Notes: a model not told the origin generated them from the sequence alone. A stretch of 64,000 nt of DNA from Anaerolineales bacterium (GCA_015075185.1 JABTUW010000004.1:1144761-1208760); one strand, 5' to 3'; numbered from the stretch's first letter, positions 1,214 through 54,305 are shown. Made by a program: numbers and translations.

Positions 1214-2713
1214 GTGAACCACACCCATGCCGTCGAAATGCGGCAGATTACCAAACGATTTGGCCCGCTGGTTGCCAACGACCGGGTTGATTTTTGCCTG
1301 CGCCAGGGTGAAATCCACGCCTTGCTGGGCGAGAACGGCGCGGGCAAAAGCACGCTGATGCGCATTCTCTACGGCCTCTACCACGCCGACGAGGGCGAAA
1401 TCCTGGTTAACGGCCAGCCGGCCCCCATCAAGTCGCCCAAAGATGCGATTGGCCGGGGCATCGGCATGGTCACGCAGCACTTTGCCCTGGTGCCGCCGCT
1501 GACCGTGACCGAAAATATTGTCCTGGGCTACACCGGCGCGTTCCGGCTGGACCTGAAGGAAGCGCACCGGAAGGTCGCGGCGGCTTCGGCCCAGTACGGC
1601 ATCGAGGTGGAGCCAACGGCCCTGGTCAAAAATTTATCGGTGGGCCAGCGGCAGCGGGTCGAGATTTTGAAGGCGCTTTACCGCCAGGCCCGGGTGCTGA
1701 TCCTGGACGAGCCAACCGCCGTGCTGATTCCGCAGGAGGTGGAGCAGCTTTTTGCCACCTTGCAGCATTTGCAGCGGAGCGGCCTGTCGGTCATTTTTAT
1801 CAGCCACAAGCTCAACGAGGTCATGAACATTACCCAGCAGGTGACGGTGCTGCGCGGCGGCAAGGTCATCGGCTCGGTGACGACCAGCGAGACAACGCCG
1901 GCGCAGCTCGCCCGCATGATGGTCGGCCGCGAAACGTTCGGGGTGACGAAAGACCCTCCCGGCGACGCCGGAACGGCTAAGACCGCGCTGCAACTGGAGG
2001 GGGTCACGGCGCATGATAACCAGGGCCTGCCGGCGCTCAAAGGGATTAGTCTGGCCGTCCACGCTGAGGAAATTCTGGGGCTGGCCGGGGTGTCGGGTAA
2101 CGGGCAGAGCGAACTGGCCGAGGTTCTGGCCGGGACGCGCCGCTGCACCGGCGGGCGGGTCAGCGTGGCCGGGCGCGACCTGACGAATGCTGGCCCGGCG
2201 GAAATGATGGCCGCCGGGGTGGGCCGGATTCCGGAGGACCGCCACGCCAGCGTGGTCGGCGAGATGACGGTGGCCCAGAATATGGCCCTGGAACACCTGG
2301 ACAGCTTTGCCCCCAACGGCCTGCTGAAACGGCGGCAGATCCAGCAGCACGCCGAGAAGCTGATCGCCGCCTACCAGATCAAGGCCGCGCCGGGCGACAA
2401 AATCCGCACGCTGTCGGGCGGCAACATGCAAAAGGTCATTCTGGCCCGCGTCTTTGAGCAAAACCCGCAGGTAATTGTCGTTGCCCAGCCGACGCGCGGC
2501 CTCGACGTGGGCGCGACCGAGTACGTGCGCGGCAAGCTGCTGGAGCAGCGCGACCGGGGCGCGGCTATTCTGCTCATCTCCGAGGATCTGGACGAGATTC
2601 TGGAGCTGTCGGACCGCATCGCCGTGATTTACGAGGGCGAGATTATGGGCATCCTCCCGGCGGCGGAGGCGGATACGGAGCGGCTGGGATTGTTGATGGC
2701 CGGGGTGAGGTGA
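1214..2713 (+). CDS. ABC transporter ATP-binding protein with two tandem nucleotide-binding domains
   Basis: 499 aa with a GTG start. First NBD has GENGAGKST, LSVGQRQR and LILDEPT. The second NBD has LSGGNMQK. Confidence 0.9.
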   Translation: MNHTHAVEMRQITKRFGPLVANDRVDFCLRQGEIHALLGENGAGKSTLMRILYGLYHADEGEILVNGQPAPIKSPKDAIGRGIGMVTQHFALVPPLTVTENIVLGYTGAFRLDLKEAHRKVAAASAQYGIEVEPTALVKNLSVGQRQRVEILKALYRQARVLILDEPTAVLIPQEVEQLFATLQHLQRSGLSVIFISHKLNEVMNITQQVTVLRGGKVIGSVTTSETTPAQLARMMVGRETFGVTKDPPGDAGTAKTALQLEGVTAHDNQGLPALKGISLAVHAEEILGLAGVSGNGQSELAEVLAGTRRCTGGRVSVAGRDLTNAGPAEMMAAGVGRIPEDRHASVVGEMTVAQNMALEHLDSFAPNGLLKRRQIQQHAEKLIAAYQIKAAPGDKIRTLSGGNMQKVILARVFEQNPQVIVVAQPTRGLDVGATEYVRGKLLEQRDRGAAILLISEDLDEILELSDRIAVIYEGEIMGILPAAEADTERLGLLMAGVR

Positions 2714-2842
2714 TTAATCTTTGACTTTTGGGCTTAAAAAGTTGTTAGATCGCCAAGAAACAAGTTGCTCCATTTAGTTTTATGCTCTCAGATTTTCCTA
2801 AAAACCGTGATCTCTAGCCGTATAATGAGATAGGCCTAATGG

Positions 2843-4219
2843 TTGAAGGCAATGGACCAAAACTATAATTGGAAGAATATCCGCACTTTACTTACTGAGG
2901 GATTTACCGCTGAAGAACTGCGTCGTTTCTGTTTTGATGAGGGCAACTTTAGGGCTGTTTATAATAAGTTGACGCAGGATACTGGTAAAGATAAGATTAT
3001 TGACTTACTTTTAGACTACGCTAACCAAAAATTGCAGACTGAAATTCTTTTAATCTGGGCTAAAGAACATAACCCTATAAGATACGAAAAATATCAACCT
3101 TACTATGACATCACTATTAACCCTACTATATCTACTGATGTCAACAGAAAACCTCAAAAAACTGTATTTATCAGTTATGGACACGAGGATGTAGAAGCAG
3201 CTAGACGCCTATATCAAGAGCTTAAGGCGGAAAAAGGGATAGAACCTTGGTTTGATAAGGAGAATCTCCTGCCCGGCATGAAATGGGAGCCTGCAATAAG
3301 GAAGGCAATCCGTGAGGCAGATTTCTTCATAGTTCTTCTATCCAAGAACTCAACATCGAGAAAAGGATATATTAACAGCGAATTACACACCGCGTTAGAA
3401 ATTCTTAAACAATTTCCAGATGATCAGATCTACCTTATTCCGATTCGTTTGGACGAATGTGAAATACACATCGAGGATTTGAGAGATATACAGCATGTTG
3501 ATTTCTTTCCAGATTGGAAGAAGGGGCTGGAGCGTATACGTGTGGTCATCAAGTCCCGAATTCCTATAGAGAAGCCAGAGGGGGAAAAAATGGAAACCAA
3601 TTCTTCGGGATTGGGCTACCATTACAGAGTGGGCATTGTTGATCTTGATATTGGCCTCACCAATCTTTTTCAGTTAGCACAACGGTTGAATACCATACAG
3701 AATTACTTTCACTTTACCTGCCCAACTCTTCCATCAATTACAAATGCAGTTCGAGAAATTGAAGGACAACGGAATCTTGATGTCCACCAAGTGCCCGATA
3801 ATTTTTACGAAGAGCATCAGTATTTAAGCGTTGATTTAATTGCTTGCTTAACCAAATACCCTCTTGCGTTTCGAGAGAATGGTAAGCTTTTATCAAACTA
3901 CTTCTCAGGCCCAGGTGAGAAAGATGACCGCTTCATGTTCATTTCAACTCATCTACTTTATGAATTGATCAGACTAGCAGGTTGCACATTTGAGAAAGGC
4001 ATTATCTACATTATCATATCTCAGTTAGTTGTGTATTTTACTGATTGGGGATACCACGATGCAACCCTTGGTTGTGTCATGGATTTCTGCGAAAACCGTT
4101 GGGATATGGTGGAAGGGCTTAAATCAATGAGGTTCTGTGATGGGTGCAAAGTTATGATTCAAAATCCAGACTTGGAAAAAGCACTTAATAGAATGCTTCT
4201 AGATGATATGAGGCTATAG
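2843..4219 (+). CDS. Three-part protein: helical adaptor-like N-domain, TIR domain, uncharacterised Cys-containing C-domain
   Basis: 458 aa in an AT-rich stretch. aa ~106-235 (VFISYGHEDVEAARRLYQEL...PGMKWEPAIRKAIREADFFIVLLSKNS...NSELHTALE) is a TIR_2-like motif set. aa ~10-80 (FTAEELRRFCFDEG...IIDLLLDYA) resembles effector-associated/death-like adaptor helices. aa ~250-458 match no family I recognise and end in FCDGC. TTG at 2843 or ATG at 2852 could be the start. Confidence 0.75.
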   Translation: MKAMDQNYNWKNIRTLLTEGFTAEELRRFCFDEGNFRAVYNKLTQDTGKDKIIDLLLDYANQKLQTEILLIWAKEHNPIRYEKYQPYYDITINPTISTDVNRKPQKTVFISYGHEDVEAARRLYQELKAEKGIEPWFDKENLLPGMKWEPAIRKAIREADFFIVLLSKNSTSRKGYINSELHTALEILKQFPDDQIYLIPIRLDECEIHIEDLRDIQHVDFFPDWKKGLERIRVVIKSRIPIEKPEGEKMETNSSGLGYHYRVGIVDLDIGLTNLFQLAQRLNTIQNYFHFTCPTLPSITNAVREIEGQRNLDVHQVPDNFYEEHQYLSVDLIACLTKYPLAFRENGKLLSNYFSGPGEKDDRFMFISTHLLYELIRLAGCTFEKGIIYIIISQLVVYFTDWGYHDATLGCVMDFCENRWDMVEGLKSMRFCDGCKVMIQNPDLEKALNRMLLDDMRL

Positions 4220-4251
4220 TCAAGTAGCAAAATCTTGAGCCGAGTTAAATT

Positions 4252-4569
4252 ATGATAAAAATACCAGTCCAAACGAAAAAAGAAATTCTTGCGCTTATCC
4301 AGGCAAATCAAGAAAGCATTAAGACCTTTGGGGTGAAGAAACTCGGCTTGTTTGGTTCTTTTATGCGCAATCAGCAACGCAGTGAGAGCGATATTGATTT
4401 ACTGGTCGAATTTGAGCCGGGCCAGAAGAGCTTTGATAACTTTATGCAGCTCTCATTTTTGCTGGAAGATATTCTCCAACGGCCTGTGGAATTGGTGACG
4501 CTCGAGTCGCTCAGTCCCTACATTGCCCCTTATATTACCCAAGAGGTAGAGTATGTTATCTCCGCTTGA
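4252..4569 (+). CDS. MntA-type minimal nucleotidyltransferase (type VII toxin-antitoxin antitoxin family), apparently orphan
   Basis: 105 aa with the GLFGSFMRNQQRSESDIDLLVEF (GSxxRG...DxD) NTase motif. No intact HepT/DUF86 partner follows. Confidence 0.8.
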   Translation: MIKIPVQTKKEILALIQANQESIKTFGVKKLGLFGSFMRNQQRSESDIDLLVEFEPGQKSFDNFMQLSFLLEDILQRPVELVTLESLSPYIAPYITQEVEYVISA

Positions 4570-4586
4570 GTACCTGAGATTAAACA

Positions 4587-5027
4587 ATGCGCAAAGGCAT
4601 CGAAATCGAGGAACTGCGCCCCGGCAGCGGGCCGACCGCCGAACGAGGCCAGACCGCCACCATTCGCTACACCGGCTTCTTGAATCACGGGGATAAATTC
4701 CAGGAGAACGTTACCTGCACCTTCCGGGTGGGCAGCCGGGAGGTGATTCTCGGCCTGGCCTATGGCGTCGAGGGGATGCGGGTGGGCGGATTGCGGCGGG
4801 TGCGGGTCAGTCCGCACCTGGCTTATGGTTCGGCGGGCGTTTCCGGCCTGATCCCGGCGAACGCCGTGCTGATTTTTGAGATTGAGCTGCTCGAAGTATC
4901 GGACGCTGGGCAGCGGCATAGCATGGACCAAATGGAACAAAGCCATGCCGAAGGTTATGCTCAACACCCGGTTGAGCCGGGCGAGTTCGACGCCTGGGAA
5001 ACCGAACAAACCTGGGACGAAGAATGA
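4587..5027 (+). CDS. FKBP-type peptidyl-prolyl cis-trans isomerase with acidic C-terminal tail
   Basis: 146 aa. RYTGFL..G.KF, GLAYGVEGMRVGG.RRV.V.P.LAYG and LIFEIELLEV are FKBP_C hallmarks. High GC resumes exactly here. Confidence 0.85.
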   Translation: MRKGIEIEELRPGSGPTAERGQTATIRYTGFLNHGDKFQENVTCTFRVGSREVILGLAYGVEGMRVGGLRRVRVSPHLAYGSAGVSGLIPANAVLIFEIELLEVSDAGQRHSMDQMEQSHAEGYAQHPVEPGEFDAWETEQTWDEE

Positions 5028-5923
5028 TTCTTGTCACCGGCGGCGGCGGATTGATTGGGAGACGGGTCTGCGGGTTGTTAGCGGCCCACGGCTATGAGGT
5101 CGTCGCGGTTGATCGCAACAGGATTACCGGCCTGCCCTGCCAAACGGTCCAGGGCGATTTGACCAGCCAGGCGTTCCTGAATGAATTATTCCGCGGCTAT
5201 TCCTTTGCAGCCGTCGTCCATCTGGCCTCGCTGCTGAACACGGCTTCGCAAAAGCAGCCGCAAGAGGCGATGCGGGTGAATATCGGCGGCAGTCTTGGCT
5301 TGCTGGAGGCGGCGGCTCAAGCCCGTGTCCCAAAATTCATTTACGGCAGTTCCATCAGCGCCTACGGCTCAAAACCTTATGCCCAATATGGCGAGGTGGC
5401 GGAGTCCGAGCCAGCCTCGCCGGAAGATGTCTACGGCCTCTGCAAACGCTATGTTGAAATTGTAGGGGAGAGTTACCGGCAGCAACACGGGATGCAGTTT
5501 GTGGCTTTGCGCATTGCCTCGGTCATCAGCCCGGGAGCGATGCAGACTGCCTCGCCGTGGCGCTACGAGATTTTTGAAAAACTGAGGGTAAACCGGCCGG
5601 CCCCCATCCACTTTCCTTACCAGGCCGGCCAGAGATTTCCCCTGATTTACCTGGACGATGTGGCCGAAGTTATCAGGAGGTTCGTCGCCGAAACCCGGAT
5701 CGCCGAGACCATTTATAACACCCCCGCCGAAAATTGGCGTTTTGGCGAACTGGCGACCTATCTCCAAACGCTCAACAGCCAGATCGAATTTACTTATGGC
5801 TCGACGCCGGCGAGCGGTCTGCCGGAGGCAATCAACGGCTGCCGTTTTATCCATGAATTTGGCTTCAGCCCAATCCCGGTGAAGGAACGTCTGCGCTGCT
5901 TTCTCGAAGGGGGCGGCAATTAA
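5024..5923 (+). CDS. NAD-dependent epimerase/dehydratase family protein
   Basis: 299 aa. N-terminal Rossmann motif ILVTGGGGLIGRRV and catalytic YGLCK (YxxxK). ATGA overlap with the FKBP gene. Confidence 0.8.
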   Translation: MILVTGGGGLIGRRVCGLLAAHGYEVVAVDRNRITGLPCQTVQGDLTSQAFLNELFRGYSFAAVVHLASLLNTASQKQPQEAMRVNIGGSLGLLEAAAQARVPKFIYGSSISAYGSKPYAQYGEVAESEPASPEDVYGLCKRYVEIVGESYRQQHGMQFVALRIASVISPGAMQTASPWRYEIFEKLRVNRPAPIHFPYQAGQRFPLIYLDDVAEVIRRFVAETRIAETIYNTPAENWRFGELATYLQTLNSQIEFTYGSTPASGLPEAINGCRFIHEFGFSPIPVKERLRCFLEGGGN

Positions 5924-6003
5924 CCTTCCTGCCAATCACTTATTACTGTGATGCAGAAGGTTATCAGTGACAATATATTTGTACGCAACATCCTGGAATT
6001 TTT

Positions 6004-6828
6004 ATGCATCCGAAAATCACGCCAGGCGAACTCAGGCAGAGAATTAAAGAGCTGGAAAAGGAAAATCTCGACCTCAAAAACGAAGTCGAGGTTCTGCGGG
6101 AGGCCGCCGAAAAATATCAAACGATCTTTGAGACGGTCCCGACCTCGATCCAGGTGGTAGATAAAAACGGGATCATCGTCGAGGTCAACCCTTACCACCT
6201 TCGACAAATGGGTCGGGGCAAAACAACCAAACAGGACTATTTAAACCAACATATTTTGGACCGCCCCAGCATCGTTCGAGCCGGATTAATCGAAAAATAC
6301 AGGCGCGTGCTTGCCGGAGAAAAGATGGAGGAGTGGGAAGTCCATTTCCCCGTCACCAGCGGCGGCGTTAAAGACGCCTATTCCAACATTAGAGGAGCGC
6401 CCATTATACGGGATGGAGAAATTATTGGGGCGATTTTTATCTCAGAAGATGTGACGCAGCTCAAACAGGACCACGAAGAGTTAATCCGGCATCGCGAAAA
6501 ACTTGAAGAGTTGGTAGCGGCGCGGACCCAAGATTTGCAGGAGGCCTATCTCCAATTGCGAGAAGAGAATGCAGAACGCCGCAAAGCCGAAGAAGAAAAA
6601 GAAAAAATAATCGTCCAGCTTCAAGAAGCCCTGGCCAGAGTCAAAACATTGAGCGGCCTGCTGCCGATTTGCGCTTCGTGCAAAAAAATTCGGGATGATG
6701 ACGGCTATTGGTACCAGGTAGAAGTCTATATCAGAGACCATGCCGAGGTGGAATTTAGTCACAGCATCTGCCCCGAGTGTGTGAAAAAGTTATATCCAGA
6801 ATTTTATTCCGGCAGTGAAAAGCAATAA
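6004..6828 (+). CDS. PAS-domain sensor protein with coiled coils and a Cys-rich C-terminal module
   Basis: 274 aa: N-terminal coiled coil, PAS core (ETVPTSIQVVDKNGIIVEVNP...GAIFISEDVTQLK), second coiled coil, then LSGLLPICASCKKIRDDDGYWYQVEVYIRDHAEVEFSHSICPECVKKLYPE. Confidence 0.7.
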   Translation: MHPKITPGELRQRIKELEKENLDLKNEVEVLREAAEKYQTIFETVPTSIQVVDKNGIIVEVNPYHLRQMGRGKTTKQDYLNQHILDRPSIVRAGLIEKYRRVLAGEKMEEWEVHFPVTSGGVKDAYSNIRGAPIIRDGEIIGAIFISEDVTQLKQDHEELIRHREKLEELVAARTQDLQEAYLQLREENAERRKAEEEKEKIIVQLQEALARVKTLSGLLPICASCKKIRDDDGYWYQVEVYIRDHAEVEFSHSICPECVKKLYPEFYSGSEKQ

Positions 6829-14887: not shown

Positions 14888-15058
14888 AGATAACGATTGA
14901 TTCAAAGTAGAGGGAAACTATGCTGCCCCAAGTGATGGTTTCCATATTGCATTCCAAGGAGGTGATGCGTTCCCCACAGATGAACAATTATGCCCCACCC
15001 AGGCCATTCCTGGCCCAAATTTTATCCATAAACCATTTTAAAGGAGGACAAAATCAGC

Positions 15059-18004
15059 ATGAAAACTAAGTTATGGTTTGTATTGGCTTTGTTGGTTATC
15101 CTGGCGACAATTGCGCCTCAGCCGACTCAGGCTTCCAGACTTGCTCAGACAGGCTTTGACAAGGACAAAATCCTGGAAGACGGCAAGATCACCATCGCCT
15201 GGATCCCCAAGGCGTTGAACAACCCCGTCTTTGAAATCGGCCGGGTTGGCGCGGAAACCAAGGCCGCCGAACTGACCGAAGCCGGTCCGTACGAGATCGA
15301 GATCAACTACACCGCCTCGGTGGCTTCGGACGCGGCGGAACAGGCCCGTGTCATCGAGGATGCCATTGCCTCAGGAGTAGAAGCCATCGGCGTTTCCTGC
15401 AACGACCCCACCGGCTGTATTGATCCGATCAACAAGGCGATTGAGGCCGGCATTCCGGTGATGACCTGGGACTCTGACTCGCCTGACAGCGACCGCTTCA
15501 CCTACCTCGGCGTGGACAACTACGAGGGCGGGAAGGCTGCCGCTGACCTGATGAAGAAGGCCCTGCCCGACGGCGGGAAAGTGGCCCTGCTGACCGGTGT
15601 GCCGGGCGCGTTCAACCTCGAAGAGCGCATCCGCGGCTTCAAGGATGGCGTCGAGGGGACCAACATCGAGGTTATCGCTACCGTTGCCTGCGACGACGAC
15701 ATCAACAAGGGCGTCCAGGTGGTTGAGGAGACGATGCAGGCCAATCCTGACCTCAACGGCTGGTTCTTTGTCGGCCTGTGGCCGCTCTTCGCCGAGCGCG
15801 GCTCAATGCCGCTCTGGGAAGAGGCCAGCGCCTCCGGCAATCTCAAGACTGTGGCCTTCGACACCCTGCCGGTCGAACTTGAGTACCTCCAGGAAGGGCT
15901 GCTCTACGGGCTGGTCGGGCAGAAGTACTGGGGCTGGGGCTATGACACCACCCAGATGATCTACGACACCATCGTGGACGGCAAGCAGTTCGACTCCTTC
16001 ACCAACTCCGGCATGGACATCGTCGGCCCGGGTAATGTGGATATAATGGCCGAAGCCTGGGCGAACAATGATTTCACTAAGCCGCTGCCGCTGGGCTTCC
16101 CGACTTTTGACAAGGACAAAATCCTGGAAGACGGCAAGATCACCATTGCCTGGATTCCCAAAGCGTTGAACAACCCTGTCTTTGAAGTTGGCCGGGTTGG
16201 CGCGGAAACCAAGGCCGCCGAACTGACCGAAGCCGGCCCATACGAGGTCGAGATCAACTACACCGCCTCGGTCGCTTCCGACGCGGCAGAACAGGCCCGC
16301 GTTATCGAAGATGCCGTCGCCGCGGGGGTAGAAGCCATCGGCGTTTCCTGCAACGACCCCACCGCCTGCGTGGACCCGATCAATAATGCCATTGACGCCG
16401 GCATTCCGGTGATGACCTGGGACTCCGACTCGCCTGATAGCGATCGTTTCACCTACCTGGGTGTGGACAACTATGAGGGTGGGAAGGCCGCCGCCGAACT
16501 GATGATCCAAGCCCTGCCGGATGGCGGGAAGGTGGCGCTGCTGACCGGCGTGCCCGGCGCGTTCAACCTCGAAGAGCGCATCCGCGGCTTCAAGGACGGC
16601 GTTGCCGGTACCAACATCGAGGTTGTCGCTACCGTCGCCTGCGATGACGACATCAACAAGGGTGTCCAGGTGGTTGAGGAGACAATGCAGGCCAATCCTG
16701 ACCTCAACGGCTGGTTCTTTGTCGGCCTGTGGCCGCTCTTCGCCGAGCGCGGCTCAATGCCGCTGTGGGAAGAGGCCAGCGCCTCCGGCAATCTCAAGAC
16801 TGTGGCCTTCGACACCCTGCCGGTCGAACTTGAGTACCTCCAGGAAGGGCTGCTCTACGGGCTGGTCGGGCAGAAGTACTGGGGCTGGGGCTATGACACC
16901 ACCCAGATGATCTACGACACCATCGTGGACGGCAAGCAGTTCGACTCCTTCACCAACTCCGGCATGGACATCGTCGGCCCGGGTAATGTGGATATAATGG
17001 CCGAAGCCTGGGCGAACAATGATTTCACTAAGCCGCTGCCGCTGGGCTTCCCGACTTTTGACAAGGACAAAATCCTGGAAGACGGCAAGATCACCATTGC
17101 CTGGATTCCCAAAGCGTTGAACAACCCTGTCTTTGAAGTTGGCCGGGTTGGCGCGGAAACCAAGGCCGCCGAACTGACCGAAGCCGGCCCATACGAGGTC
17201 GAGATCAACTACACCGCCTCGGTCGCTTCCGACGCGGCAGAACAGGCCCGCGTTATCGAAGATGCCGTCGCCGCGGGGGTAGAAGCCATCGGCGTTTCCT
17301 GCAACGACCCCACCGCCTGCGTGGACCCGATCAATAATGCCATTGACGCCGGCATTCCGGTGATGACCTGGGACTCCGACTCGCCTGATAGCGATCGTTT
17401 CACCTACCTGGGTGTGGACAACTATGAGGGTGGGAAGGCCGCCGCCGAACTGATGATCCAAGCCCTGCCGGATGGCGGGAAGGTGGCGCTGCTGACCGGC
17501 GTGCCCGGCGCGTTCAACCTCGAAGAGCGCATCCGCGGCTTCAAGGACGGCGTTGCCGGTACCAACATCGAGGTTGTCGCTACCGTCGCCTGCGATGACG
17601 ACATCAACAAGGGTGTCCAGGTGGTTGAGGAGACAATGCAGGCCAATCCTGACCTCAACGGCTGGTTCTTTGTCGGCCTGTGGCCGCTCTTCGCCGAGCG
17701 CGGCTCAATGCCGCTCTGGGAAGAGGCCTCCCTGGCCGGGATGAAGACCGTTGCCTTCGACACCCTCCCGGTCGAGCTCGACTATCTGAAGGAAGGGCTG
17801 CTCTACGGACTGGTCGGCCAGAAGTACTGGGGCTGGGGCTATGACACCACCCAGATGATCTATGACACCATCGTGGATGGCAAGCAGTTTGAGCCTTTCA
17901 CCAACTCCGGCATGGACATCGTCGGCCCCAATAACGTTGACGTGATGTCTGAAGCCTGGGCGAACAACGATTTCACCAAAGAGTTACCACCGGCGTTTGA
18001 GTAA
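15059..18004 (+). CDS. Secreted triple-tandem periplasmic sugar-binding protein (three PBP1/RbsB-like units in one polypeptide)
   Basis: 981 aa with one N-terminal signal peptide, then three ~317-aa units, each starting FDKDKILEDGKITIAWIPKALNNPVF and ending ...AWANNDFTK. Confidence 0.85.
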   Translation: MKTKLWFVLALLVILATIAPQPTQASRLAQTGFDKDKILEDGKITIAWIPKALNNPVFEIGRVGAETKAAELTEAGPYEIEINYTASVASDAAEQARVIEDAIASGVEAIGVSCNDPTGCIDPINKAIEAGIPVMTWDSDSPDSDRFTYLGVDNYEGGKAAADLMKKALPDGGKVALLTGVPGAFNLEERIRGFKDGVEGTNIEVIATVACDDDINKGVQVVEETMQANPDLNGWFFVGLWPLFAERGSMPLWEEASASGNLKTVAFDTLPVELEYLQEGLLYGLVGQKYWGWGYDTTQMIYDTIVDGKQFDSFTNSGMDIVGPGNVDIMAEAWANNDFTKPLPLGFPTFDKDKILEDGKITIAWIPKALNNPVFEVGRVGAETKAAELTEAGPYEVEINYTASVASDAAEQARVIEDAVAAGVEAIGVSCNDPTACVDPINNAIDAGIPVMTWDSDSPDSDRFTYLGVDNYEGGKAAAELMIQALPDGGKVALLTGVPGAFNLEERIRGFKDGVAGTNIEVVATVACDDDINKGVQVVEETMQANPDLNGWFFVGLWPLFAERGSMPLWEEASASGNLKTVAFDTLPVELEYLQEGLLYGLVGQKYWGWGYDTTQMIYDTIVDGKQFDSFTNSGMDIVGPGNVDIMAEAWANNDFTKPLPLGFPTFDKDKILEDGKITIAWIPKALNNPVFEVGRVGAETKAAELTEAGPYEVEINYTASVASDAAEQARVIEDAVAAGVEAIGVSCNDPTACVDPINNAIDAGIPVMTWDSDSPDSDRFTYLGVDNYEGGKAAAELMIQALPDGGKVALLTGVPGAFNLEERIRGFKDGVAGTNIEVVATVACDDDINKGVQVVEETMQANPDLNGWFFVGLWPLFAERGSMPLWEEASLAGMKTVAFDTLPVELDYLKEGLLYGLVGQKYWGWGYDTTQMIYDTIVDGKQFEPFTNSGMDIVGPNNVDVMSEAWANNDFTKELPPAFE
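15155..18001 (+). repeat. 951-bp tandem repeat x3 (coding); 15734-17728 is about 2.1 copies with a single mismatch
   Basis: Unit starts at 15155, 16106 and 17057. 15734-16777 equals 16685-17728 except for C/G at 15814/16765. Confidence 0.9.
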
Positions 18005-24730: not shown

Positions 24731-26134
24731 TTACAAAATCTGGCCCGATTTGGCCTTAACGAAGTACCCCTGGCAGGCTTCCTCGATTAACCCCGGAGTC
24801 ATATGCAGCGGCTCGCCGGCGTATTCACATAAAACCTTCACCGCTTTCAAAATATCACGCGGGTGAACCGATTGAAGGGGTTTGCCCGTTTTTCGATACC
24901 ACTCATTGAGAAAATAGAGAAACGAGTCCCGGTCAACGGGCATTGGAAAACCCAAGGTTTGAGCCTGGTTCTCAAAGATTTGATAAAACATCTTTTCATC
25001 AGGCCCAAATACGCCGACTTTGATCTGGATACGGCGCAGAAATGCCCCGTCCACCAGGTCATCCGGGTCCAGATTGGTGCTGAACACCAGCAACTGCTTA
25101 AAGGGTATCTGGAAGGTCATGCCGGAGTTGAGTCGCAAAAAGTCAATTCGGGTTTCCAACGGTACAATCCAGCGGTTTAAAAGCTGGGTTGGGCTAATCT
25201 GTTGGCGGCCAAAGTCGTCAATGAGGAACATGCCGCCGTTAGCTTTCAACTGTAAGGGCGCTTCGTAGAATTTGGCCACCGGCTCATACCGCAGGTCCAG
25301 GTGTTCCATGGTTAATTCGCCGCCGACCATGACCCCCGGCCGCTGAATCAGCCCCCAGCGATTATCCGCTCCGCCCCGTTCGTCAGTACTGAATTTGTGA
25401 ATCAGGCTATCGTAAATCTGAATAATCGCTCCACCGATCGTAATGGCGTAGGGCATCCAGATTGGCTCGCCGCCGCCCAGCATCTTGGCGATGGCTTCGG
25501 AAATAGTCGTTTTACCATTGCCCGGCGGGCCGTACAAAAAGAGCGAGCTGCCGGCGTTAACCGCCGGGCCAATTTTGCGGTCAAAATCCTTAGGTAAAAT
25601 GAGGTGGTTTAAGGCTTGTTGAACCTGGGGTCGGGTTAGTTTTTCAATGGTGGCCTGCGCCAAAACGGATTTGGTGTACTTCTCCAACGGCACCGGCGTC
25701 GGGCCGACATACTGGGTCCGCTCAAAAGCCTCCTTGGCCCTGTTCCGTCCGCCATCGGTGAGACTGTAAACATAGCCGCGCCGGCCCAGGCTGCCCACCG
25801 CTTTGGCCACTTCTAGCATGTGTTCCTGCTGCATCCAGGCCAATAAATCATCAATAATCCGGTAGGGAAGTTTAACGACCTCTTCGGCATGGGTGGCGCT
25901 AACCTCACCCTCGTTGTACGTCAAGCGCAAAAGGATATCAACCACCATCCCCTGGTTAACATCCAAATCATCTAGCGAAGCCGGGGGGGTCAAAAGTTCG
26001 GCCATCCCCTTAAAGCGCTGAATGCTGGGTGCAGTCAACTGCGCCGTGCTTGAGAGAGGTCGTTGTGGTGATATTGTTGCTGTATTGGACAATTGCTTCA
26101 AAGTTCCAGTCGTAGCCATTGGCTCTTTCTCCAA
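24731..26134 (-). CDS. AAA+ ATPase with N-terminal winged-helix-like region
   Basis: 467 aa with Walker A LFLYGPPGNGKTT and Walker B MFLIDDFGRQ. Family not resolved further. Confidence 0.65.
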   Translation of the reverse strand: MEKEPMATTGTLKQLSNTATISPQRPLSSTAQLTAPSIQRFKGMAELLTPPASLDDLDVNQGMVVDILLRLTYNEGEVSATHAEEVVKLPYRIIDDLLAWMQQEHMLEVAKAVGSLGRRGYVYSLTDGGRNRAKEAFERTQYVGPTPVPLEKYTKSVLAQATIEKLTRPQVQQALNHLILPKDFDRKIGPAVNAGSSLFLYGPPGNGKTTISEAIAKMLGGGEPIWMPYAITIGGAIIQIYDSLIHKFSTDERGGADNRWGLIQRPGVMVGGELTMEHLDLRYEPVAKFYEAPLQLKANGGMFLIDDFGRQQISPTQLLNRWIVPLETRIDFLRLNSGMTFQIPFKQLLVFSTNLDPDDLVDGAFLRRIQIKVGVFGPDEKMFYQIFENQAQTLGFPMPVDRDSFLYFLNEWYRKTGKPLQSVHPRDILKAVKVLCEYAGEPLHMTPGLIEEACQGYFVKAKSGQIL

Positions 26135-26444
26135 CGATAGGTTATATGCAATTTAAAATAGTGGGGGGCAGCTTAAAATTATTTTCCAGGGTAATTATAC
26201 TAAAGGCTTCTTAAATTGTCGAGATTTTCTGTTAAGGTTAAGGTACTATTGATCCTTAATAGTCATCAAAAACAATTCCGGCCCTGTTGAGTGAAGATTG
26301 GCATGGCCAGAGCTTCAGTACTCTCACGGGCATGCAGCTCTCATCTCTAAAAATTAAACTATTTTTGGTAGAATTGCCAGAGGACAAAAGTGCCAGTTGG
26401 CTAGAAATTTAGCCGACAAAACCAAAACTACAACAAAAAGCGGA

Positions 26445-26507
26445 TTGACAGTTGTTTACTTTTAGAGTAAAATGAGTGTGTACTCACTCAACTGAGTGAA
26501 CACTCAT
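26445..26507 (+). promoter_or_regulatory. Strong sigma70-type promoter with a palindromic operator for the LuxR/TetR/ABC-2 efflux operon
   Basis: TTGACA (26445-26450), 17 bp, TAAAAT (26468-26473). Immediately followed by nested palindromes ATGAGTGT...ACACTCAT and TCACTCA-ac-TGAGTGA (26472-26507). Confidence 0.6.
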
Positions 26508-26587
26508 ATCACAAAAATGATGGATTTGAAGTTATCTGCTTTAAATCTGGCGAACCCCTTGAGTGTGAACGGCAAGGAGAAATAGAG

Positions 26588-26812
26588 ATGGATTTTTATC
26601 CTGAGCCCTTAACCAAACGCGAGTATGAAGTATTGCTACGCTTGGCTTCCGGCGTGCCAAACCGACAAATTAGCCGAAGTTTATTCATCACCGAAAGCAC
26701 AGTTAAGCGGCATATCTACAACATTTTGACCAAATTGAATGTACATAACCGTACTGAGGCTGCCCTATGGGCGCATCATCTTAGCTTTGACCCGGAGTCA
26801 ACCCATGTTTGA
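26588..26812 (+). CDS. Stand-alone LuxR-type HTH protein
   Basis: 74 aa: LTKREYEVLLRLASGVPNRQISRSLFITESTVKRHIYNILTKL. Confidence 0.75.
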   Translation: MDFYPEPLTKREYEVLLRLASGVPNRQISRSLFITESTVKRHIYNILTKLNVHNRTEAALWAHHLSFDPESTHV

Positions 26813-27440
26813 TCCAACCGTAGACCTAAAAGAGCAAATGGTCGAACACCGGCGCACTCAGATTTTGCTGGGTGCGGCCAAAGTGTTTGCTGAAAAAGGG
26901 TATCACAAAGCCACCACTAAAGAGATTGCTCAAGCGGCTGGCGTATCCGAGGGTACGATTTACAACTACTTCGACAACAAGCGGGAATTGCTGCTGGCCA
27001 TGATCGAACTGCTGGCCCTTCAATCTCTCAAAAGCATCATCAACACTCAGCCGCCCGCTGACCCTAAAGAATTTATCACTATCATTCTCCGCGATCGTTA
27101 TCAACTGGCTCAGGAACGCGGTTACCTGATTATGCCCATCCTGGCCGAAATGTTTACCGATGCAGAGCTGCGCCAGGAGGTTTATCAAAAACTGGCTATG
27201 CCGGTCGCCGGTTTCCTGGAGCGATATATCCAGACCCACATTGACTCCGGCATGTTTCGCCCGGTTAATCCGGTAATTGCGACCCGCGTTTTTATTGGCT
27301 CTATCGTCGTAAACTTTGCCATGAAACTGGCTAACCTTGATGCCAGGTATGAAGATATCTCGCCCGATGCCCTGATCGAGGAATTAGCCTCCCTTTTTAT
27401 GGACATGCTTTTAAATCCGGAGCGAGCAAATGAGAAATAA
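26805..27440 (+). CDS. TetR-family transcriptional regulator
   Basis: ILLGAAKVFAEKGYHKATTKEIAQAAGVSEGTIYNYF is a TetR_N HTH. The ATG at 26805 overlaps the LuxR stop. Confidence 0.8.
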   Translation: MFDPTVDLKEQMVEHRRTQILLGAAKVFAEKGYHKATTKEIAQAAGVSEGTIYNYFDNKRELLLAMIELLALQSLKSIINTQPPADPKEFITIILRDRYQLAQERGYLIMPILAEMFTDAELRQEVYQKLAMPVAGFLERYIQTHIDSGMFRPVNPVIATRVFIGSIVVNFAMKLANLDARYEDISPDALIEELASLFMDMLLNPERANEK

Positions 27441-27501
27441 GAAATGAGACCCGTGAGGATGTCTAACTTCTAATTTCTTATCTCTTATAGGTAATTGAAC
27501 T

Positions 27502-28620
27502 ATGCTTCGTCGTGTCTATAGTCTAATCCGCAAAGAATTTACCCACATCGTGCGTGACCCGCGCACCCTGGCGATCATGATCGTCATGCCCATCCTGATG
27601 CTTATCCTCCTGGGCTACGCCGCCACCACCGATGTTGAATCCCTGCGCACCGCCGTTTATGACGCCGACAAGACTCCTCAGAGCCGCGATCTCATCGCTG
27701 CCTACCAGGCCTCCAATTATTTCGACATTGTGGCTTATGTGGAAAAAGAAGATGACCTGCGCTATCTGATTGATCACAACGACGTACGCAGTGCGCTGAT
27801 TATTCCTGCCGGTTACGGTCGAGATATGGCAGCCCGCGAGCGCACCGATGTCGCCTTCCTTATGGACGGCTCAGACCCGACCGTAGCCCGGACGGTTTTT
27901 GCTGCCTCCCAGCAGGTGGGACAGGCGGTCTCGATGAAACTGTTGGAACAACAGTTGGATGTGCTGGGTCCCCTGCCAGGTGTCGAGGTCAGGCCACGGG
28001 TCTGGTACAACCCCAATATGGAAAGCGCCCATTTTTTGATTCCCGGCACCATCGTGCTGATCCTGTTCCTGTTTACCACCCTTTTTACCTCGACCTCCAT
28101 CGTCCGGGAGCGCGAGCTAGGAACCATCGAGCAATTGATTGTGACGCCCATCCGGCCCATCGAATTGGTTGTAGCCAAAGTATTGCCTTATATCCTGGTC
28201 TCTTTTTTCGTCATCATCGAAGTTCTAACCCTGGGGGTGTTAATCTTCGGCGTGCCGATTAATGGCAGTATCCCTTTGCTCCTGGGCCTGTGCAGCCTGT
28301 TTCTGGTGACGGCGCTGGGGATAGGCATCTTTATTTCCAGTGTTGCCAAGACTCAAGTGGAAGCATTTTTGATGACCTTTGCTACCGTTATGCCTACCGT
28401 CTTTCTGAGTGGTTTCTTCTTTCCCCTCGAGGCAATGCCCTGGGCGTTGCAGCTTATCAGCTATATCATCCCGGCTAAATATGGCCTGATTATCGTCCGT
28501 AGCATTCTCCTGAAGGGAGTGGGGCTGGAGATTTTGAGGGAGCAGGTTGTGGCCATCCTGATTTTTGCCGCCGTCATTGTCACCCTGGCCTCAACCCGCT
28601 TCAAGAAAAAGTTGGACTGA
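27502..28620 (+). CDS. ABC-2-type transporter permease (YbhS/YbhR-like)
   Basis: 372 aa: one N-terminal TM helix, a large extracytoplasmic loop, and an IVRERE.GT.EQL motif followed by 5 TM helices. Confidence 0.8.
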   Translation: MLRRVYSLIRKEFTHIVRDPRTLAIMIVMPILMLILLGYAATTDVESLRTAVYDADKTPQSRDLIAAYQASNYFDIVAYVEKEDDLRYLIDHNDVRSALIIPAGYGRDMAARERTDVAFLMDGSDPTVARTVFAASQQVGQAVSMKLLEQQLDVLGPLPGVEVRPRVWYNPNMESAHFLIPGTIVLILFLFTTLFTSTSIVRERELGTIEQLIVTPIRPIELVVAKVLPYILVSFFVIIEVLTLGVLIFGVPINGSIPLLLGLCSLFLVTALGIGIFISSVAKTQVEAFLMTFATVMPTVFLSGFFFPLEAMPWALQLISYIIPAKYGLIIVRSILLKGVGLEILREQVVAILIFAAVIVTLASTRFKKKLD

Positions 28621-50315: not shown

Positions 50316-50404
50316 CCCGTTTACGGCTGAGACAAAAGTACTATATCGAGATTGTTTGAGCCTTTGTAGACTTCTTCACAAATCACTGGGGCAAAATAGG
50401 ATAC

Positions 50405-54251: not shown

Positions 54252-54305
54252 ATAGAAAGCGATCCTCAGGATCAGCTTAACCTGCCGTCTCTAAAACTGG
54301 CAACA

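What the first reader, a model, noticed from the sequence alone, without database searches (positions are those of the whole stretch)
2714..4580. AT-rich islet inside a nucleoside-transporter gene set encodes an adaptor-helix/TIR/unknown-domain protein
Composition drops sharply after the ATPase stop (2713) and recovers at the FKBP gene (4587). The islet holds two genes. The first has (i) an N-terminal helical region resembling the effector-associated/death-like adaptor modules that couple effectors to STAND NTPases in conflict systems, (ii) a TIR domain with the conserved Glu context (NSELH), and (iii) a ~200-aa C-domain I cannot assign, ending in MRFCDGCK. The second is an orphan MntA nucleotidyltransferase. 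Bacterial TIR domains are established NADase or signal-generating immune effectors (Thoeris, CBASS effectors, TIR-STING and others). This domain combination with no adjacent sensor NTPase matches no named system I know. It could be a single-gene abortive-infection effector or the effector half of a dispersed system. The transporter's permease genes resume only at 6857.
Basis: partly seen in the sequence, partly recalled or inferred. Interest (0 to 1): 0.7.

Follow-up and report, generated by a model that had tools for sequence, protein, structure and literature searches.

The report
TIR immune protein with dead metalloprotease domain
A foreign, AT-rich gene dropped into a nutrient-transporter operon of an Anaerolineales bacterium encodes an immune-type TIR (NAD-cleaving) protein whose previously unassignable tail is a catalytically dead, zinc-binding archaemetzincin-like domain. 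That unnamed domain is also found fused to other bacterial immune effectors, and the neighbouring "orphan" MntA gene is what is left of a toxin-antitoxin pair that lost its toxin.

Summary
Window 2714-4580 has GC 0.40 against a window mean of 0.544 and is the most AT-rich stretch of the 64 kb. It holds two intact genes.

Gene 1 (2852/2843-4219, NCBI MBE7555251.1) has three modules:
- an all-helical EAD7 adaptor;
- a TIR domain closest to the SPARTA TIR, with an invariant catalytic-position Glu (E180);
- a C-domain ("X") now assigned: an archaemetzincin (Peptidase_M54)-like fold in which HEXXH is lost, while the third His, the Met-turn and a Cys-rich zinc site remain.

X is absent from Pfam, NCBIfam and PADLOC. 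It has about 550 representative clusters and is fused to TIR, CHAT protease, PRTase or FGE-sulfatase modules.

Gene 2 (MntA) is not a partner of gene 1. In syntenic relatives (91-96% identity) MntA-HepT is resident, and the slot upstream of it carries other cargo: an AAA ATPase or a type II restriction-enzyme-like gene. In the window HepT is deleted, leaving only its first 7-9 codons.

The islet is therefore composite: a swappable cargo slot plus a decayed toxin-antitoxin module.

Most likely function (inferred, not shown): an abortive-infection NADase whose assembly is controlled by X and, uniquely here, by EAD7.

Verdict: a new variant of a known kind, of moderate interest.

The parts
2711..4219 (.). 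Strain-variable cargo segment (GC 0.39). It is bounded on the left by the ABC ATPase stop codon and on the right by sequence conserved with relatives.
   Evidence: blastn against syntenic contigs L031, L033 and L034. Flanks 1331-2710 and 4220-4572 are 91-95% identical, but nothing matches 2711-4219. Relatives carry an AAA ATPase (305 aa, GC 0.38) or an NmeDI_C/REase_II-like gene (364 aa, GC 0.44) in the same slot.
2852..4219 (+). EAD7-TIR-X gene. It is 455 aa from ATG 2852 (NCBI MBE7555251.1) or 458 aa if read from TTG 2843. Residue numbers in this report use the 458-aa frame.
   Evidence: ORF list. Upstream sequence with TATAAT and GAAGG. NCBI and Logan records.
2858..3103 (+). N-terminal EAD7 adaptor: aa 6-87, six predicted helices.
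   Evidence: Pfam EAD7 aa 13-70, E=1.7e-5, 24.9 bits, below the cut-off of 32. Homologues P0055-57 (58-69% identical) pass it at 33.8-39.9 bits. AF2 predicts six helices at low pLDDT, 35-60.
3158..3556 (+). TIR domain (aa 106-238). The catalytic-position Glu180 is encoded at 3380-3382.
   Evidence: TIR_2 95.4 bits. phmmer to SPARTA TIR-APAZ at about 1e-7, with E180 aligned to Glu77. Foldseek to SPARTA TIR 4e-7, rmsd 3.2 A, 31% identity. E180 is invariant in 48 sequences.
3614..4216 (+). X domain (aa 258-458): archaemetzincin/Peptidase_M54-like fold without HEXXH.
   Evidence: AF2 pLDDT 90, pTM 0.85. Foldseek to AmzA 2x7m/3zvs/4axq E=7e-6 to 2e-5, probability 1.0, TM 0.55/0.63-0.69, with the next hit at E=0.06. 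Bridging homologue P0180. No canonical HEXXH in 205 family sequences; the single HE..H string (P0118) lies off the active-site-helix columns.
4055..4147 (+). Retained metzincin and zinc-site signature: H405-x5-C411-V-M413-D414-F-C416-x15-C432-x2-C435.
   Evidence: Invariant columns. Alignment of AmzA 'HC--snnCvMrfs..fCreC' with P0180 'HegtrgCvMdfC..fCdeC'. AmzA consensus HEXXHXXGXXHCX4CXMX17CXXC (PMC3427221).
4252..4569 (+). MntA-type minimal nucleotidyltransferase (105 aa, MBE7555252.1). It is the antitoxin half of a resident MntA-HepT module.
   Evidence: NTP_transf_2/Polbeta. NCBIfam MntA 51.3 bits, below the cut-off of 60. Orthologues 96% and 91% identical are followed by overlapping HepT genes in L031-L035.
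4553..4579 (+). 5' remnant of the deleted HepT toxin gene (ATG 4553, MLSPLEYLR...). It overlaps the MntA stop as the intact gene does in relatives.
   Evidence: Junction comparison with L031. The blastn gap corresponds to L031 2813-3152, which is the HepT gene. HepT-like Pfam 4.6e-30 for the L031 gene.
1214..2713 (+). Left flank: ABC transporter ATPase of the Bmp/PnrA-type uptake system (native, GC 0.65).
   Evidence: Pfam ABC_tran. 93-94% DNA identity with relatives.
4587..5027 (+). Right flank: FKBP-type isomerase gene (native GC 0.62). Its 5' 320 bp are shared with relatives.
   Evidence: Pfam FKBP_C. blastn 80-90%.

Best explanation
Gene 2852-4219 is horizontally acquired cargo. It sits in a strain-variable, defence-type slot between the ABC ATPase gene and a resident, now toxin-less, MntA-HepT module of an Anaerolineales bacterium. 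It encodes a three-module immune-type protein.

(1) TIR domain. It is of the NAD+-cleaving kind, closest to the SPARTA effector TIR, with the catalytic-position Glu (E180) intact.

(2) X domain. This is a C-terminal domain descended from archaemetzincin-like metalloproteases. It has lost the HEXXH catalytic site but keeps the third His, the Met-turn and a Cys-rich, presumably zinc-binding, site. X is a modular partner of several immune effectors (TIR, CHAT protease, PRTase).

(3) EAD7 adaptor. This N-terminal helical module is found on no other member of the family.

Proposed mechanism (inferred). In the resting state the TIR is monomeric or held inactive. An infection-derived cue, most plausibly a protein or peptide bound in the relic substrate cleft, acts on X and drives self-association. 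TIR domains then form the composite NADase site and deplete NAD+, or make an ADPR-derived signal, which aborts the infection. EAD7 would add a second route: homotypic docking to an EAD7-bearing partner encoded elsewhere.

Shown here: the anatomy, the conservation, the fold assignment, the cargo and synteny relations and the HepT deletion. Inferred: NADase activity, the trigger, oligomerisation and the immune role.
For: Foreign, swappable cargo.
- GC is 0.39 against 0.65 in the flank.
- There are exact boundaries against 91-95% identical relatives that carry an AAA ATPase or a REase_II-like gene in the same slot.

TIR.
- Pfam 95 bits.
- The best sequence and structure matches in the PDB are SPARTA TIR-APAZ.
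- E180 aligns with Glu77 and is invariant.

X domain.
- AF2 pLDDT 90.
- Archaemetzincin structures are the only significant PDB hits. Viral metalloprotease-like hits agree.
- The A3 profile hits P0180 at 615-782 (E=3.7e-17), the same region that Pfam calls Peptidase_M54 (E=5.8e-18).
- That region aligns to AmzA at E=0.002 with C-V-M and CxxC in register.
- Peptidase_M54 is the only Pfam family hit by more than one of the 29 members (3/29, best E=0.013).
- No canonical HEXXH in 205 members.

Modularity of X.
- Of the 150 best representative clusters, 37 are CHAT-X, 25 TIR-X, 4 PRTase-X and 1 X-FGE-sulfatase.
- CHAT and X also occur as adjacent overlapping genes on a Gluconobacter plasmid.

Immune-type contexts.
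- TPR-S/patatin/CHAT/TIR neighbours in Bacteroidota loci.
- PRTase-X sits next to a CAP12-type TIR and an HNH gene.

Single-gene behaviour.
- No conserved neighbour across 23 TIR-X loci.

Intact and maintained.
- All family-invariant residues are present.
- The identical protein occurs in four assemblies.
Against: - No experiment supports any part of the function. NADase activity, toxicity, zinc binding and any phage phenotype are all untested.
- The trigger and the role of X are inferred only from domain-fusion logic.
- X keeps many conserved polar residues (D267, D269, Q286, D331, E384, H405, D414, R419), so it could be an enzyme of another kind rather than a passive sensor.
- No model coordinates were available, so I could not check whether these residues line the relic cleft.
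- The family was not found in phage genomes and only once, distantly, on plasmids. The usual enrichment on mobile elements is therefore not shown.
- The slot's other cargo, an AAA ATPase, has no established defence role.
- EAD7 predicts a partner that was not found within the 64 kb.
Confidence: 0.55

Rival explanations
1. Obligate effector arm of a dispersed EAD7 network. The protein has no sensing capacity of its own. It is recruited and activated only through homotypic EAD7-EAD7 docking to a core component (STAND/iSTAND, VMAP or GAP1 type) encoded elsewhere in the genome. X would serve only as a structural or oligomerisation module.
For: - An EAD7 module is present.
- Kaur et al. 2020 (PMC7159879) describe EADs as coupling adaptors with one copy on a core component. 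[quoted passage not shown]
- The closest EAD7 homologue lies beside Mrr_cat and cNMP-patatin effector-type genes in another Chloroflexota MAG.
- STAND-type proteins exist in the window at 50360-53758 and from 60678 to the window end.
Against: - About 50 other TIR-X clusters lack any EAD and occur as lone genes, so the TIR-X core seems self-sufficient.
- No second EAD7 lies within the 64 kb, and the window's STAND-like proteins lack it.
- A search of 5.8 billion proteins with the N-terminal domain found only three small EAD7-only proteins and no large core component. That search depends on shared 5-residue words, so its sensitivity is limited.
Confidence: 0.2
2. X is an active enzyme with non-canonical chemistry, or a small-molecule receptor, and the protein's main role is not NAD+ depletion. 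For example, X could use a new metal site built from H405, D414 and the conserved Asp residues, while TIR acts as a scaffold or signal generator for it.
For: - Many invariant polar residues lie outside the Cys site: Y261, D267, Q286, D331, Y339, H405 and D414.
- H405 and D414 are conserved across the whole superfamily, even where C416 and C432 change.
- The effectors fused to X (TIR, CHAT, PRTase) are the same set that is fused to nucleotide-sensing SAVED domains. P0180 combines X-like domains with SAVED.
Against: - Both zinc-binding His residues and the catalytic Glu of HEXXH are missing in every member examined.
- No fold match to any nucleotide-binding sensor.
- The C-terminal domain of the type IV Thoeris caspase, the one published candidate receptor for a TIR-made signal on a caspase-like protease, is unrelated to X.
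Confidence: 0.12
3. TIR-X and MntA form a functional two-gene module of the type VII toxin-antitoxin kind. MntA would nucleotidylylate and silence TIR-X, replacing HepT as the toxin.
For: - An orphan MntA-type gene lies directly downstream, on the same strand, in two unrelated TIR-X loci: the window and L021. Neither has a HepT.
- The GS-x10-DxD nucleotidyltransferase motif is intact.
- Invariant Tyr residues (Y261, Y339) exist in X.
Against: - Synteny shows that MntA is resident and paired with HepT in relatives whose slot holds other cargo.
- The window still carries the first codons of HepT, so the pairing arose by deletion.
- 21 of 23 TIR-X loci have no MntA.
- This MntA family is extremely abundant, with 2960 hits at E<=1e-10, mostly from Anaerolineae, so chance adjacency is plausible.
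Confidence: 0.06
4. A decaying passenger with no current function: foreign DNA awaiting loss, like the neighbouring HepT.
For: - The neighbouring toxin gene was deleted.
- The GC content is unamended.
- The slot turns over between close relatives.
Against: - The ORF is full length, with every family-invariant residue kept, including E180 and the His/Cys/Asp signature.
- The identical protein was recovered from four independent assemblies.
- The AF2 models are confident.
Confidence: 0.04

Closest known systems
SPARTA TIR-APAZ (short prokaryotic Argonaute/TIR-APAZ systems)
   Same: It has the closest TIR domain by sequence (phmmer about 1e-7; PADLOC Aga_TIR-PNTD1-PNTD2 1.8e-20) and by structure (Foldseek 4e-7, 31% identity, rmsd 3.2 A). 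The catalytic Glu is in register, E180 with Glu77. The layout is also similar: an N-terminal TIR followed by a roughly 200-300 aa regulatory domain.
   Different: The C-terminal domain is metzincin-like, not APAZ. No APAZ or Argonaute structure matches significantly; the best Piwi hit has E=0.1. No pAgo gene is adjacent. The extra N-terminal EAD7 is absent from SPARTA.
Archaemetzincin (AmzA, MEROPS/Pfam Peptidase_M54)
   Same: Same fold over the whole domain (TM 0.55-0.69, probability 1.0). The third zinc-binding His, the C-V-M Met-turn segment and the C-terminal CxxC are in register. A sequence bridge exists through P0180.
   Different: HEXXH is absent in all 205 family members examined, so canonical metalloprotease activity is excluded. 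The first Cys of the AmzA Cys4 site is lost and another Cys (C416) appears two residues after the Met. In more distant clades C416 becomes N or T and C432 becomes D or E. AmzA proteins are stand-alone; X is fused to immune effectors.
EAD-coupled effectors of NTP-dependent conflict systems (Kaur, Burroughs, Iyer and Aravind, eLife 2020 and 2021)
   Same: An N-terminal all-helical EAD7 is fused to an enzymatic effector (TIR). Those papers list EAD7 among the effector-recruiting adaptors and TIR among the effectors. They also note inactive enzyme domains, including inactive zincin-like metalloprotease domains, as typical components.
   Different: No core component (vWA-MoxR/VMAP, iSTAND, GAP1 GTPase or STAND-FGS) lies adjacent or within 64 kb. 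The TIR-X core normally occurs without any EAD. I did not find the specific TIR plus dead-M54 combination in those texts.
Sensor-effector fusions such as TIR-SAVED, SAVED-CHAT and PRTase effectors (CBASS, type III CRISPR, retron III-A)
   Same: The same set of effectors (TIR, CHAT, PRTase) is attached to one shared non-catalytic domain, which is the hallmark of a sensor or switch module. TIR-SAVED and TIR-STING are among the structural TIR matches.
   Different: X has no similarity to SAVED, CARF or STING. No cyclase or CD-NTase gene is linked. The ligand, if there is one, is unknown.
MntA-HepT type VII toxin-antitoxin system
   Same: Gene 2 is a minimal MntA-type nucleotidyltransferase. Its 91-96% identical orthologues overlap a HepT gene in the canonical arrangement.
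   Different: In the window HepT is deleted except for its first 7-9 codons. Only the antitoxin remains, and it scores below NCBIfam's MntA cut-off (51.3 against 60).

Membership tests
TIR domain (Pfam TIR_2, enzymatic NADase-type bacterial TIR) | Profile match above the curated cut-off | tested here: met
   TIR_2 95.4 bits against a cut-off of 28. TIR 35.8 against 21.3.
TIR domain (Pfam TIR_2, enzymatic NADase-type bacterial TIR) | Catalytic glutamate at the conserved position | tested here: met
   E180 aligns with Glu77 of SPARTA TIR-APAZ in the phmmer alignment and is invariant in 48 family members. That Glu77 is the catalytic residue is from my own knowledge of the SPARTA literature.
TIR domain (Pfam TIR_2, enzymatic NADase-type bacterial TIR) | TIR (flavodoxin-like) fold | tested here: met
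   AF2 pLDDT is above 90 over the domain. Foldseek gives SPARTA, SARM1, AbTir and MyD88 TIR hits, the best at 4e-7.
TIR domain (Pfam TIR_2, enzymatic NADase-type bacterial TIR) | NAD+ hydrolase or cyclase activity | not testable with these tools
   Needs a biochemical assay.
EAD7 (Pfam PF19960) coupling adaptor | Profile match above the curated cut-off | tested here: inconclusive
   The window protein scores 24.9 bits against a cut-off of 32 (E=1.7e-5). Its only homologues (58-69% identical over 81% of the domain) score 33.8-39.9 bits and pass.
EAD7 (Pfam PF19960) coupling adaptor | Small, non-enzymatic, all-alpha domain at a protein terminus, fused to an effector | tested here: met
   Six helices are predicted in aa 6-87, though at low pLDDT. 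The domain is N-terminal to TIR.
EAD7 (Pfam PF19960) coupling adaptor | [quoted passage not shown] | tested here: not met
   There is no other EAD7-like ORF in the 64 kb (phmmer --max). The STAND-like proteins in the window show no EAD7 in Pfam. The rest of the genome could not be searched.
Archaemetzincin / Peptidase_M54 | Metzincin fold | tested here: met
   Foldseek to 2x7m, 3zvs and 4axq: E=7e-6 to 2e-5, probability 1.0, 186-208 aligned columns of 209.
Archaemetzincin / Peptidase_M54 | HEXXHXXGXXH catalytic zinc motif | tested here: not met
   The window has ..SQLVVYFTDWGYH405. No canonical HEXXH occurs in 205 family sequences; the single HE..H string is off-register. Only the third His is kept.
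Archaemetzincin / Peptidase_M54 | Cys4 site and Met-turn (CX4CXMX17CXXC) | tested here: inconclusive
   C411-V-M413 and C432-x2-C435 are in register with AmzA. The first AmzA Cys is missing and C416 is new. Zinc binding was not tested.
Archaemetzincin / Peptidase_M54 | Pfam Peptidase_M54 match above the cut-off | tested here: not met
   No hit for the window domain. 3 of 29 members give weak hits, the best at E=0.013. Only the distant homologue P0180 passes, at 66 bits against 24.4.
SPARTA (short pAgo + TIR-APAZ) | APAZ domain C-terminal to the TIR | tested here: not met
   The C-domain model matches archaemetzincins, not APAZ or Argonaute N/L domains. Sequence matches to TIR-APAZ stop at about aa 252-288.
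SPARTA (short pAgo + TIR-APAZ) | Adjacent short pAgo gene | tested here: not met
   The neighbours are the ABC ATPase and MntA.
Thoeris (types I-IV) | TIR gene paired with a ThsA-type effector (SIR2/SLOG, Macro, or caspase-like) | tested here: not met
   There are only weak ThsB-type TIR hits and no such neighbour. The type IV Thoeris caspase (E. coli locus L045) does not match the X profile, scoring -2 bits.
MntA-HepT type VII toxin-antitoxin | MntA minimal nucleotidyltransferase with the GS..DxD motif | tested here: met
   NTP_transf_2 50.6 bits. The motif is GSFMRNQQRSESDID. The NCBIfam MntA equivalog scores 51.3, below its cut-off of 60.
MntA-HepT type VII toxin-antitoxin | Overlapping downstream HepT (HEPN) toxin gene | tested here: not met
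   Only 17 nt separate MntA from FKBP. A 7-9 codon HepT remnant remains at 4553-4579. The intact HepT is present in L031-L035.

The most novel reading that the evidence does not exclude
The catalytically dead archaemetzincin-like domain X would be a previously unnamed, widespread sensor or switch module of prokaryotic immunity. It has about 550 clusters at 50% identity and is fused to TIR, CHAT-caspase and PRTase effectors. It would act as a pseudo-protease that captures an infection-derived protein or peptide (or another ligand) in its relic substrate cleft and so licenses effector assembly. This would be functionally analogous to SAVED or CARF domains, but derived from a protease. The window protein would further show that such a unit can be wired through a death-domain-like EAD7 adaptor into a second activation network.
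Probability: 0.3. Interest if true: 0.75.

Novelty: new variant of a known kind. Interest (0 to 1): 0.55.

Why it matters
Bacterial TIR effectors are defined by what switches them on: SAVED, STING, APAZ/pAgo, or ThsA partners.

This work assigns a fold and an evolutionary origin to a new switch candidate, a protease fossil that keeps its zinc scaffold. The same module serves at least three different immune effectors, yet it is missing from Pfam, NCBIfam and PADLOC.

That gives a concrete, testable entry point into how single-gene TIR, CHAT and PRTase proteins sense infection. The relevant handles are E180, H405, the four Cys residues and the relic cleft.

The locus also gives a clean natural example of cargo swapping at a fixed chromosomal slot in Anaerolineales, an uncultured, filamentous lineage. 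It also shows a type VII toxin-antitoxin pair decaying by toxin loss.

Tried and rejected
1. Sequence-only assignment of the C-domain failed. Pfam, NCBIfam and PADLOC gave nothing for the window domain. A family profile against PDB sequences gave nothing. Only the structure prediction and a distant bridging homologue resolved it.

2. The C-domain as APAZ was rejected. This idea came from the PADLOC Aga_TIR-PNTD match reaching aa 288. Foldseek does not support it; the best Piwi hit has E=0.1.

3. My first guess from the 'YRVGIVDLD' strand, a PIN/NYN-type nuclease, was not supported by any structural hit.

4. MntA as a dedicated partner of TIR-X was rejected on synteny and on the HepT remnant. 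One further TIR-X locus with an orphan MntA (L021) remains unexplained.

5. X as the unknown C-terminal domain of the type IV Thoeris caspase was rejected. I recovered the E. coli operon from the paper's cloned sequence and scanned the caspase with the X profile. There was no match.

6. Conserved neighbours of TIR-X: an all-against-all comparison of ORFs in 23 loci found none.

7. Mobile-element signatures at the islet borders: no flanking direct or inverted repeats of note, no tRNA in the window, and promoter or terminator matches at the chance level.

8. Carriage on phages or plasmids: no phage hit and one distant plasmid hit.

9. Literature searches for a described TIR or CHAT plus M54/archaemetzincin-like combination, and for 'PRTase-CE', found nothing specific.

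10. Adding the EAD7 homologues to the full-length alignment (A4) misaligned them, so that alignment was not used.


Full report
OBSERVATION

The composition drop is real and extreme. GC falls from 0.64-0.71 in the ABC ATPase gene to 0.35-0.42 between about 2700 and 4500, and returns to about 0.60 in the FKBP gene. The islet 2714-4580 has GC 0.398. The mean of 1.5-kb windows is 0.544 (sd 0.037), and the lowest of all (0.391) starts at 2801. Only 0.8% of such windows are at or below 0.41, and all of them lie in the islet.

The islet holds two intact + strand ORFs: 2843..4219 and 4252..4569. NCBI calls the first from ATG 2852, giving 455 aa (MBE7555251.1, 'toll/interleukin-1 receptor domain-containing protein [Anaerolineales bacterium]'). 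The second is MBE7555252.1, and both lie on a 1.41-Mb MAG contig. ATG 2852 is preceded by GAAGG and a TATAAT. Residue numbers below keep the 458-aa frame.

GENE 1, N-TERMINUS

- Pfam EAD7 matches aa 13-70 at E=1.7e-5 but below the curated cut-off (24.9 against 32 bits).
- A search of 5.8 billion proteins with aa 4-105 found only three relatives. All are small EAD7-only proteins, 58-69% identical, and each passes the EAD7 cut-off at 33.8-39.9 bits. The assignment therefore holds by transitive homology.
- The full-length AF2 model gives six helices in aa 6-87, at low confidence because no alignment covers them.
- One relative (P0055, a Chloroflexota MAG) lies beside Mrr_cat and cNMP-binding patatin genes.
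- No other EAD7-like ORF exists in the 64 kb. The window's STAND-like proteins (BTAD-NB-ARC/NACHT-TPR at 50360-53758, and kinase-AAA_16 from 60678) show none.

GENE 1, TIR

- TIR_2 scores 95 bits.
- The best PDB relatives are the TIR domains of SPARTA TIR-APAZ, by sequence (about 1e-7) and by structure (Foldseek 4e-7, about 31% identity, rmsd 3.2 A).
- In the residue-level alignment, E180 ('NSELH') pairs with Glu77 of TIR-APAZ. E180 is invariant in 48 family members.
- The refutation criterion 'catalytic Glu absent' is therefore not met.

GENE 1, C-DOMAIN ('X')

The family.
- A search with aa 235-458 found 54 clusters. Nearly all are about 350-aa proteins made of TIR_2 plus this domain, without an N-terminal extension. 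They come from Chloroflexota-type metagenomes, Bacteroidota, Acidobacteriota, Halobacteria and Thermoplasmata.
- Invariant residues include Y261, D267, Q286, D331, Y339, H405, C411, D414, C416, C432 and C435.

Fold.
- AF2 on aa 250-458 gave pLDDT 90 and pTM 0.85.
- The only significant PDB matches are archaemetzincins (2x7m, 3zvs, 4axq): E=7e-6 to 2e-5, probability 1.0, TM 0.55/0.63-0.69 over almost the whole domain. The next hit has E=0.06.
- In the viral library the matches are an uncharacterised giant-virus protein and entomopoxvirus metalloproteases.

Sequence bridge.
- A profile of the domain alone (A3) found nothing among PDB sequences.
- Against 1.84 billion representative proteins it found 550 proteins at E<=1e-3.
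- One of them, P0180 (2016 aa, with a C-terminal SAVED domain), is hit at residues 615-782 (E=3.7e-17). Pfam calls the same region Peptidase_M54 (E=5.8e-18).
- That region aligns to A. fulgidus AmzA at E=0.002. The '..H..C-V-M..' and 'F-C-x-x-C' segments are in register.
- Peptidase_M54 is also the only Pfam family hit by more than one of the 29 X-domain sequences scanned (3 of 29, best E=0.013).

Motif comparison. The published AmzA signature is HEXXHXXGXXHCX4CXMX17CXXC (PMC3427221). Against it, X keeps:
- the third His (H405);
- the second Cys (C411);
- the Met-turn Met (M413);
- the CxxC (C432, C435).

X has lost the first Cys and gained C416. It has no HEXXH: the window reads SQLVVYFTDWGYH. 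None of 205 family sequences has the motif at that position, and the single HE..H string found lies off the active-site-helix columns.

X is therefore a catalytically dead, probably zinc-stabilised, relative of archaemetzincins. It is not a member of the M54 peptidases in any functional sense.

MODULARITY OF X

Among the 150 best representative clusters:

| Architecture | Clusters |
|---|---|
| CHAT protease + X | 37 |
| TIR + X | 25 |
| PRTase + X | 4 |
| X + FGE-sulfatase | 1 |
| No recognisable partner domain | 83 |

- On a Gluconobacter albidus conjugative plasmid, CHAT, X and an LCAT/DUF7379-type lipase are three consecutive overlapping genes. This is a split form of the CHAT-X fusion.
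- PRTase-X lies beside a CAP12-type TIR and an HNH gene.
- No model in Pfam (2025), NCBIfam (June 2026) or PADLOC (2023) covers X.

CONTEXTS OF TIR-X

- In 23 loci with flanks, no neighbouring gene family recurs.
- Three Bacteroidota loci have TPR-S proteins fused to patatin, CHAT or MAP3K_TRAF_bd, and further TIR genes.
- Elsewhere the gene stands alone in unrelated surroundings.
- The window protein is the only family member found with an EAD7. Only the identical protein, shorter members of its own 90%-identity cluster, and copies in three Logan assemblies with the same context were seen.

GENE 2 AND THE STRUCTURE OF THE ISLET

The 105-aa protein is a MntA-type minimal nucleotidyltransferase from a very abundant family (2960 hits at E<=1e-10). 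Its 96% and 91% identical orthologues sit in syntenic loci:

| Locus | Gene order |
|---|---|
| L031-L033 | ABC ATPase - AAA (305 aa) - MntA - HepT - FKBP - PAS - permeases |
| L034/L035 | ABC ATPase - NmeDI_C/REase_II-like (364 aa) - MntA - HepT - FKBP - PRiA4_ORF3 - PAS - permease |

blastn fixes the boundaries:

| Window coordinates | Counterpart in L031 |
|---|---|
| 1331-2710 | 1-1380 (94% identity) |
| 2711-4219 | none |
| 4220-4572 | MntA (95% identity) |
| (missing from the window) | 2813-3152, the HepT gene |
| 4586-4906 | FKBP |

The window still carries ATG 4553 and the first 7-9 HepT codons (MLSPLEYLR), overlapping the MntA stop exactly as the intact gene does in relatives.

The islet is therefore composite. 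It consists of a cargo slot with strain-specific, low-GC, defence-flavoured genes, plus a resident, also low-GC, MntA-HepT module whose toxin was deleted here. The 'orphan' MntA is explained, and it is not a designed partner of the TIR gene.

One loose end remains. In L021 another TIR-X gene (55% identical in X) is also followed by an orphan MntA-type gene.

MECHANISM (INFERRED)

Bacterial enzymatic TIR domains act only after assembly. That assembly is controlled by the attached domain or a partner: SAVED, STING, APAZ-pAgo or STAND (established knowledge; the structures are listed).

X behaves like such a control module. It is one non-catalytic domain shared by TIR, CHAT and PRTase effectors. 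Its origin as a protease with a preserved scaffold suggests that it binds a protein or peptide cue in the relic cleft. Kaur et al. proposed this logic in general terms for inactive peptidase domains in conflict systems (PMC7159879).

I therefore favour a single-protein sensor-effector that depletes NAD+ on infection (confidence 0.55). In this lineage EAD7 would add optional homotypic coupling to a partner encoded elsewhere.

Rivals:
- an obligate EAD7-dependent effector arm (0.20);
- X as an enzyme or receptor of another kind (0.12);
- a TIR-X/MntA toxin-antitoxin pair (0.06);
- a functionless passenger (0.04).

COMPARISON AND NOVELTY

- The protein works most like TIR-SAVED or TIR-APAZ-type effectors and, by its adaptor, like the EAD-coupled effectors of Kaur et al.
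- It is a member of the TIR family.
- It is not a SPARTA, Thoeris, CBASS or M54-peptidase member, because defining features were tested and not met.
- I rate it a new variant of a known kind: a TIR immune effector with an unnamed, protease-derived control domain and a unique EAD7 fusion.

LIMITS

- There is no functional evidence of any kind.
- No model coordinates were available for residue mapping.
- The rest of the genome could not be searched for EAD7 partners.
- The X-domain census rests on the 150 best of 550 representative clusters.

Noticed in passing
window 4907-5986: There is a second variable slot just downstream. Relative to L031 the window has about 1.08 kb extra: a longer FKBP C-terminus (146 against 108 aa) and an NAD-dependent epimerase gene (5024-5923). 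L034 carries a PRiA4_ORF3 gene at the same place. The transporter operon is thus interrupted by two independently variable segments.
   Followed up: partly
L021 1118-2809: A second TIR-X gene (55% identical in X, from an unrelated context beside a methylmalonyl-CoA mutase-like gene) is also followed directly by an orphan MntA-type nucleotidyltransferase with no HepT. That makes two of 23 loci. This may be chance, given how abundant the MntA family is, but it is unexplained.
   Followed up: partly
L039 4559-7787 (Gluconobacter albidus plasmid pGS1191_1, NZ_CP014690.1): An operon of three overlapping genes: a CHAT protease (362 aa), a stand-alone X-domain protein (255 aa, annotated hypothetical) and an LCAT/DUF7379-type alpha/beta hydrolase (459 aa). 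It is a split version of the CHAT-X fusion, in a cultured organism, and would be a tractable model for the X domain.
   Followed up: partly
P0180 (2016 aa, from the representative library): A giant protein with two X/Peptidase_M54-like domains (about 615-782 and 1076-1160), both without HEXXH, and a C-terminal SAVED domain. It links the X family to cyclic-oligonucleotide sensing architectures.
   Followed up: partly
L015 10001-13327 (Chloroflexota MAG BOKF01000042.1): The closest EAD7 relative (137 aa, EAD7 only) is followed by a Mrr_cat restriction-endonuclease-fold gene and a divergent cNMP-binding patatin gene. This may be another EAD7-linked effector set, or a split EAD7-Mrr fusion.
   Followed up: no
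window 50360-53758, 54252-56555 and 60678-63998: A BTAD-NB-ARC/NACHT-TPR STAND protein (1133 aa), a YcaO cyclodehydratase with an N-terminal winged helix, and a Ser/Thr kinase-AAA_16 protein that runs off the window end. None carries EAD7. Any relation to the TIR gene is unknown.
   Followed up: no
window 15032-18001: A 990-aa protein with three tandem Peripla_BP_4 domains. It also has a short Pfam hit to VMAP-C (E=3.4e-10, aa 118-156), the C-terminal domain of the vWA-MoxR-associated proteins that carry EADs. The hit is probably a local similarity only.
   Followed up: no
window 25901-27600: The only other low-GC stretch in the window (minimum 0.448). It holds a 74-aa LuxR-type HTH ORF and a TetR-like regulator, upstream of an ABC-2-type permease.
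   Followed up: no
window 6004-6828: The PAS protein between the islet and the permeases has lower GC (0.48-0.51), a long coiled coil and a C-terminal Cys/His cluster (CASCKK...HSICPEC). It is conserved in the syntenic relatives.
   Followed up: no
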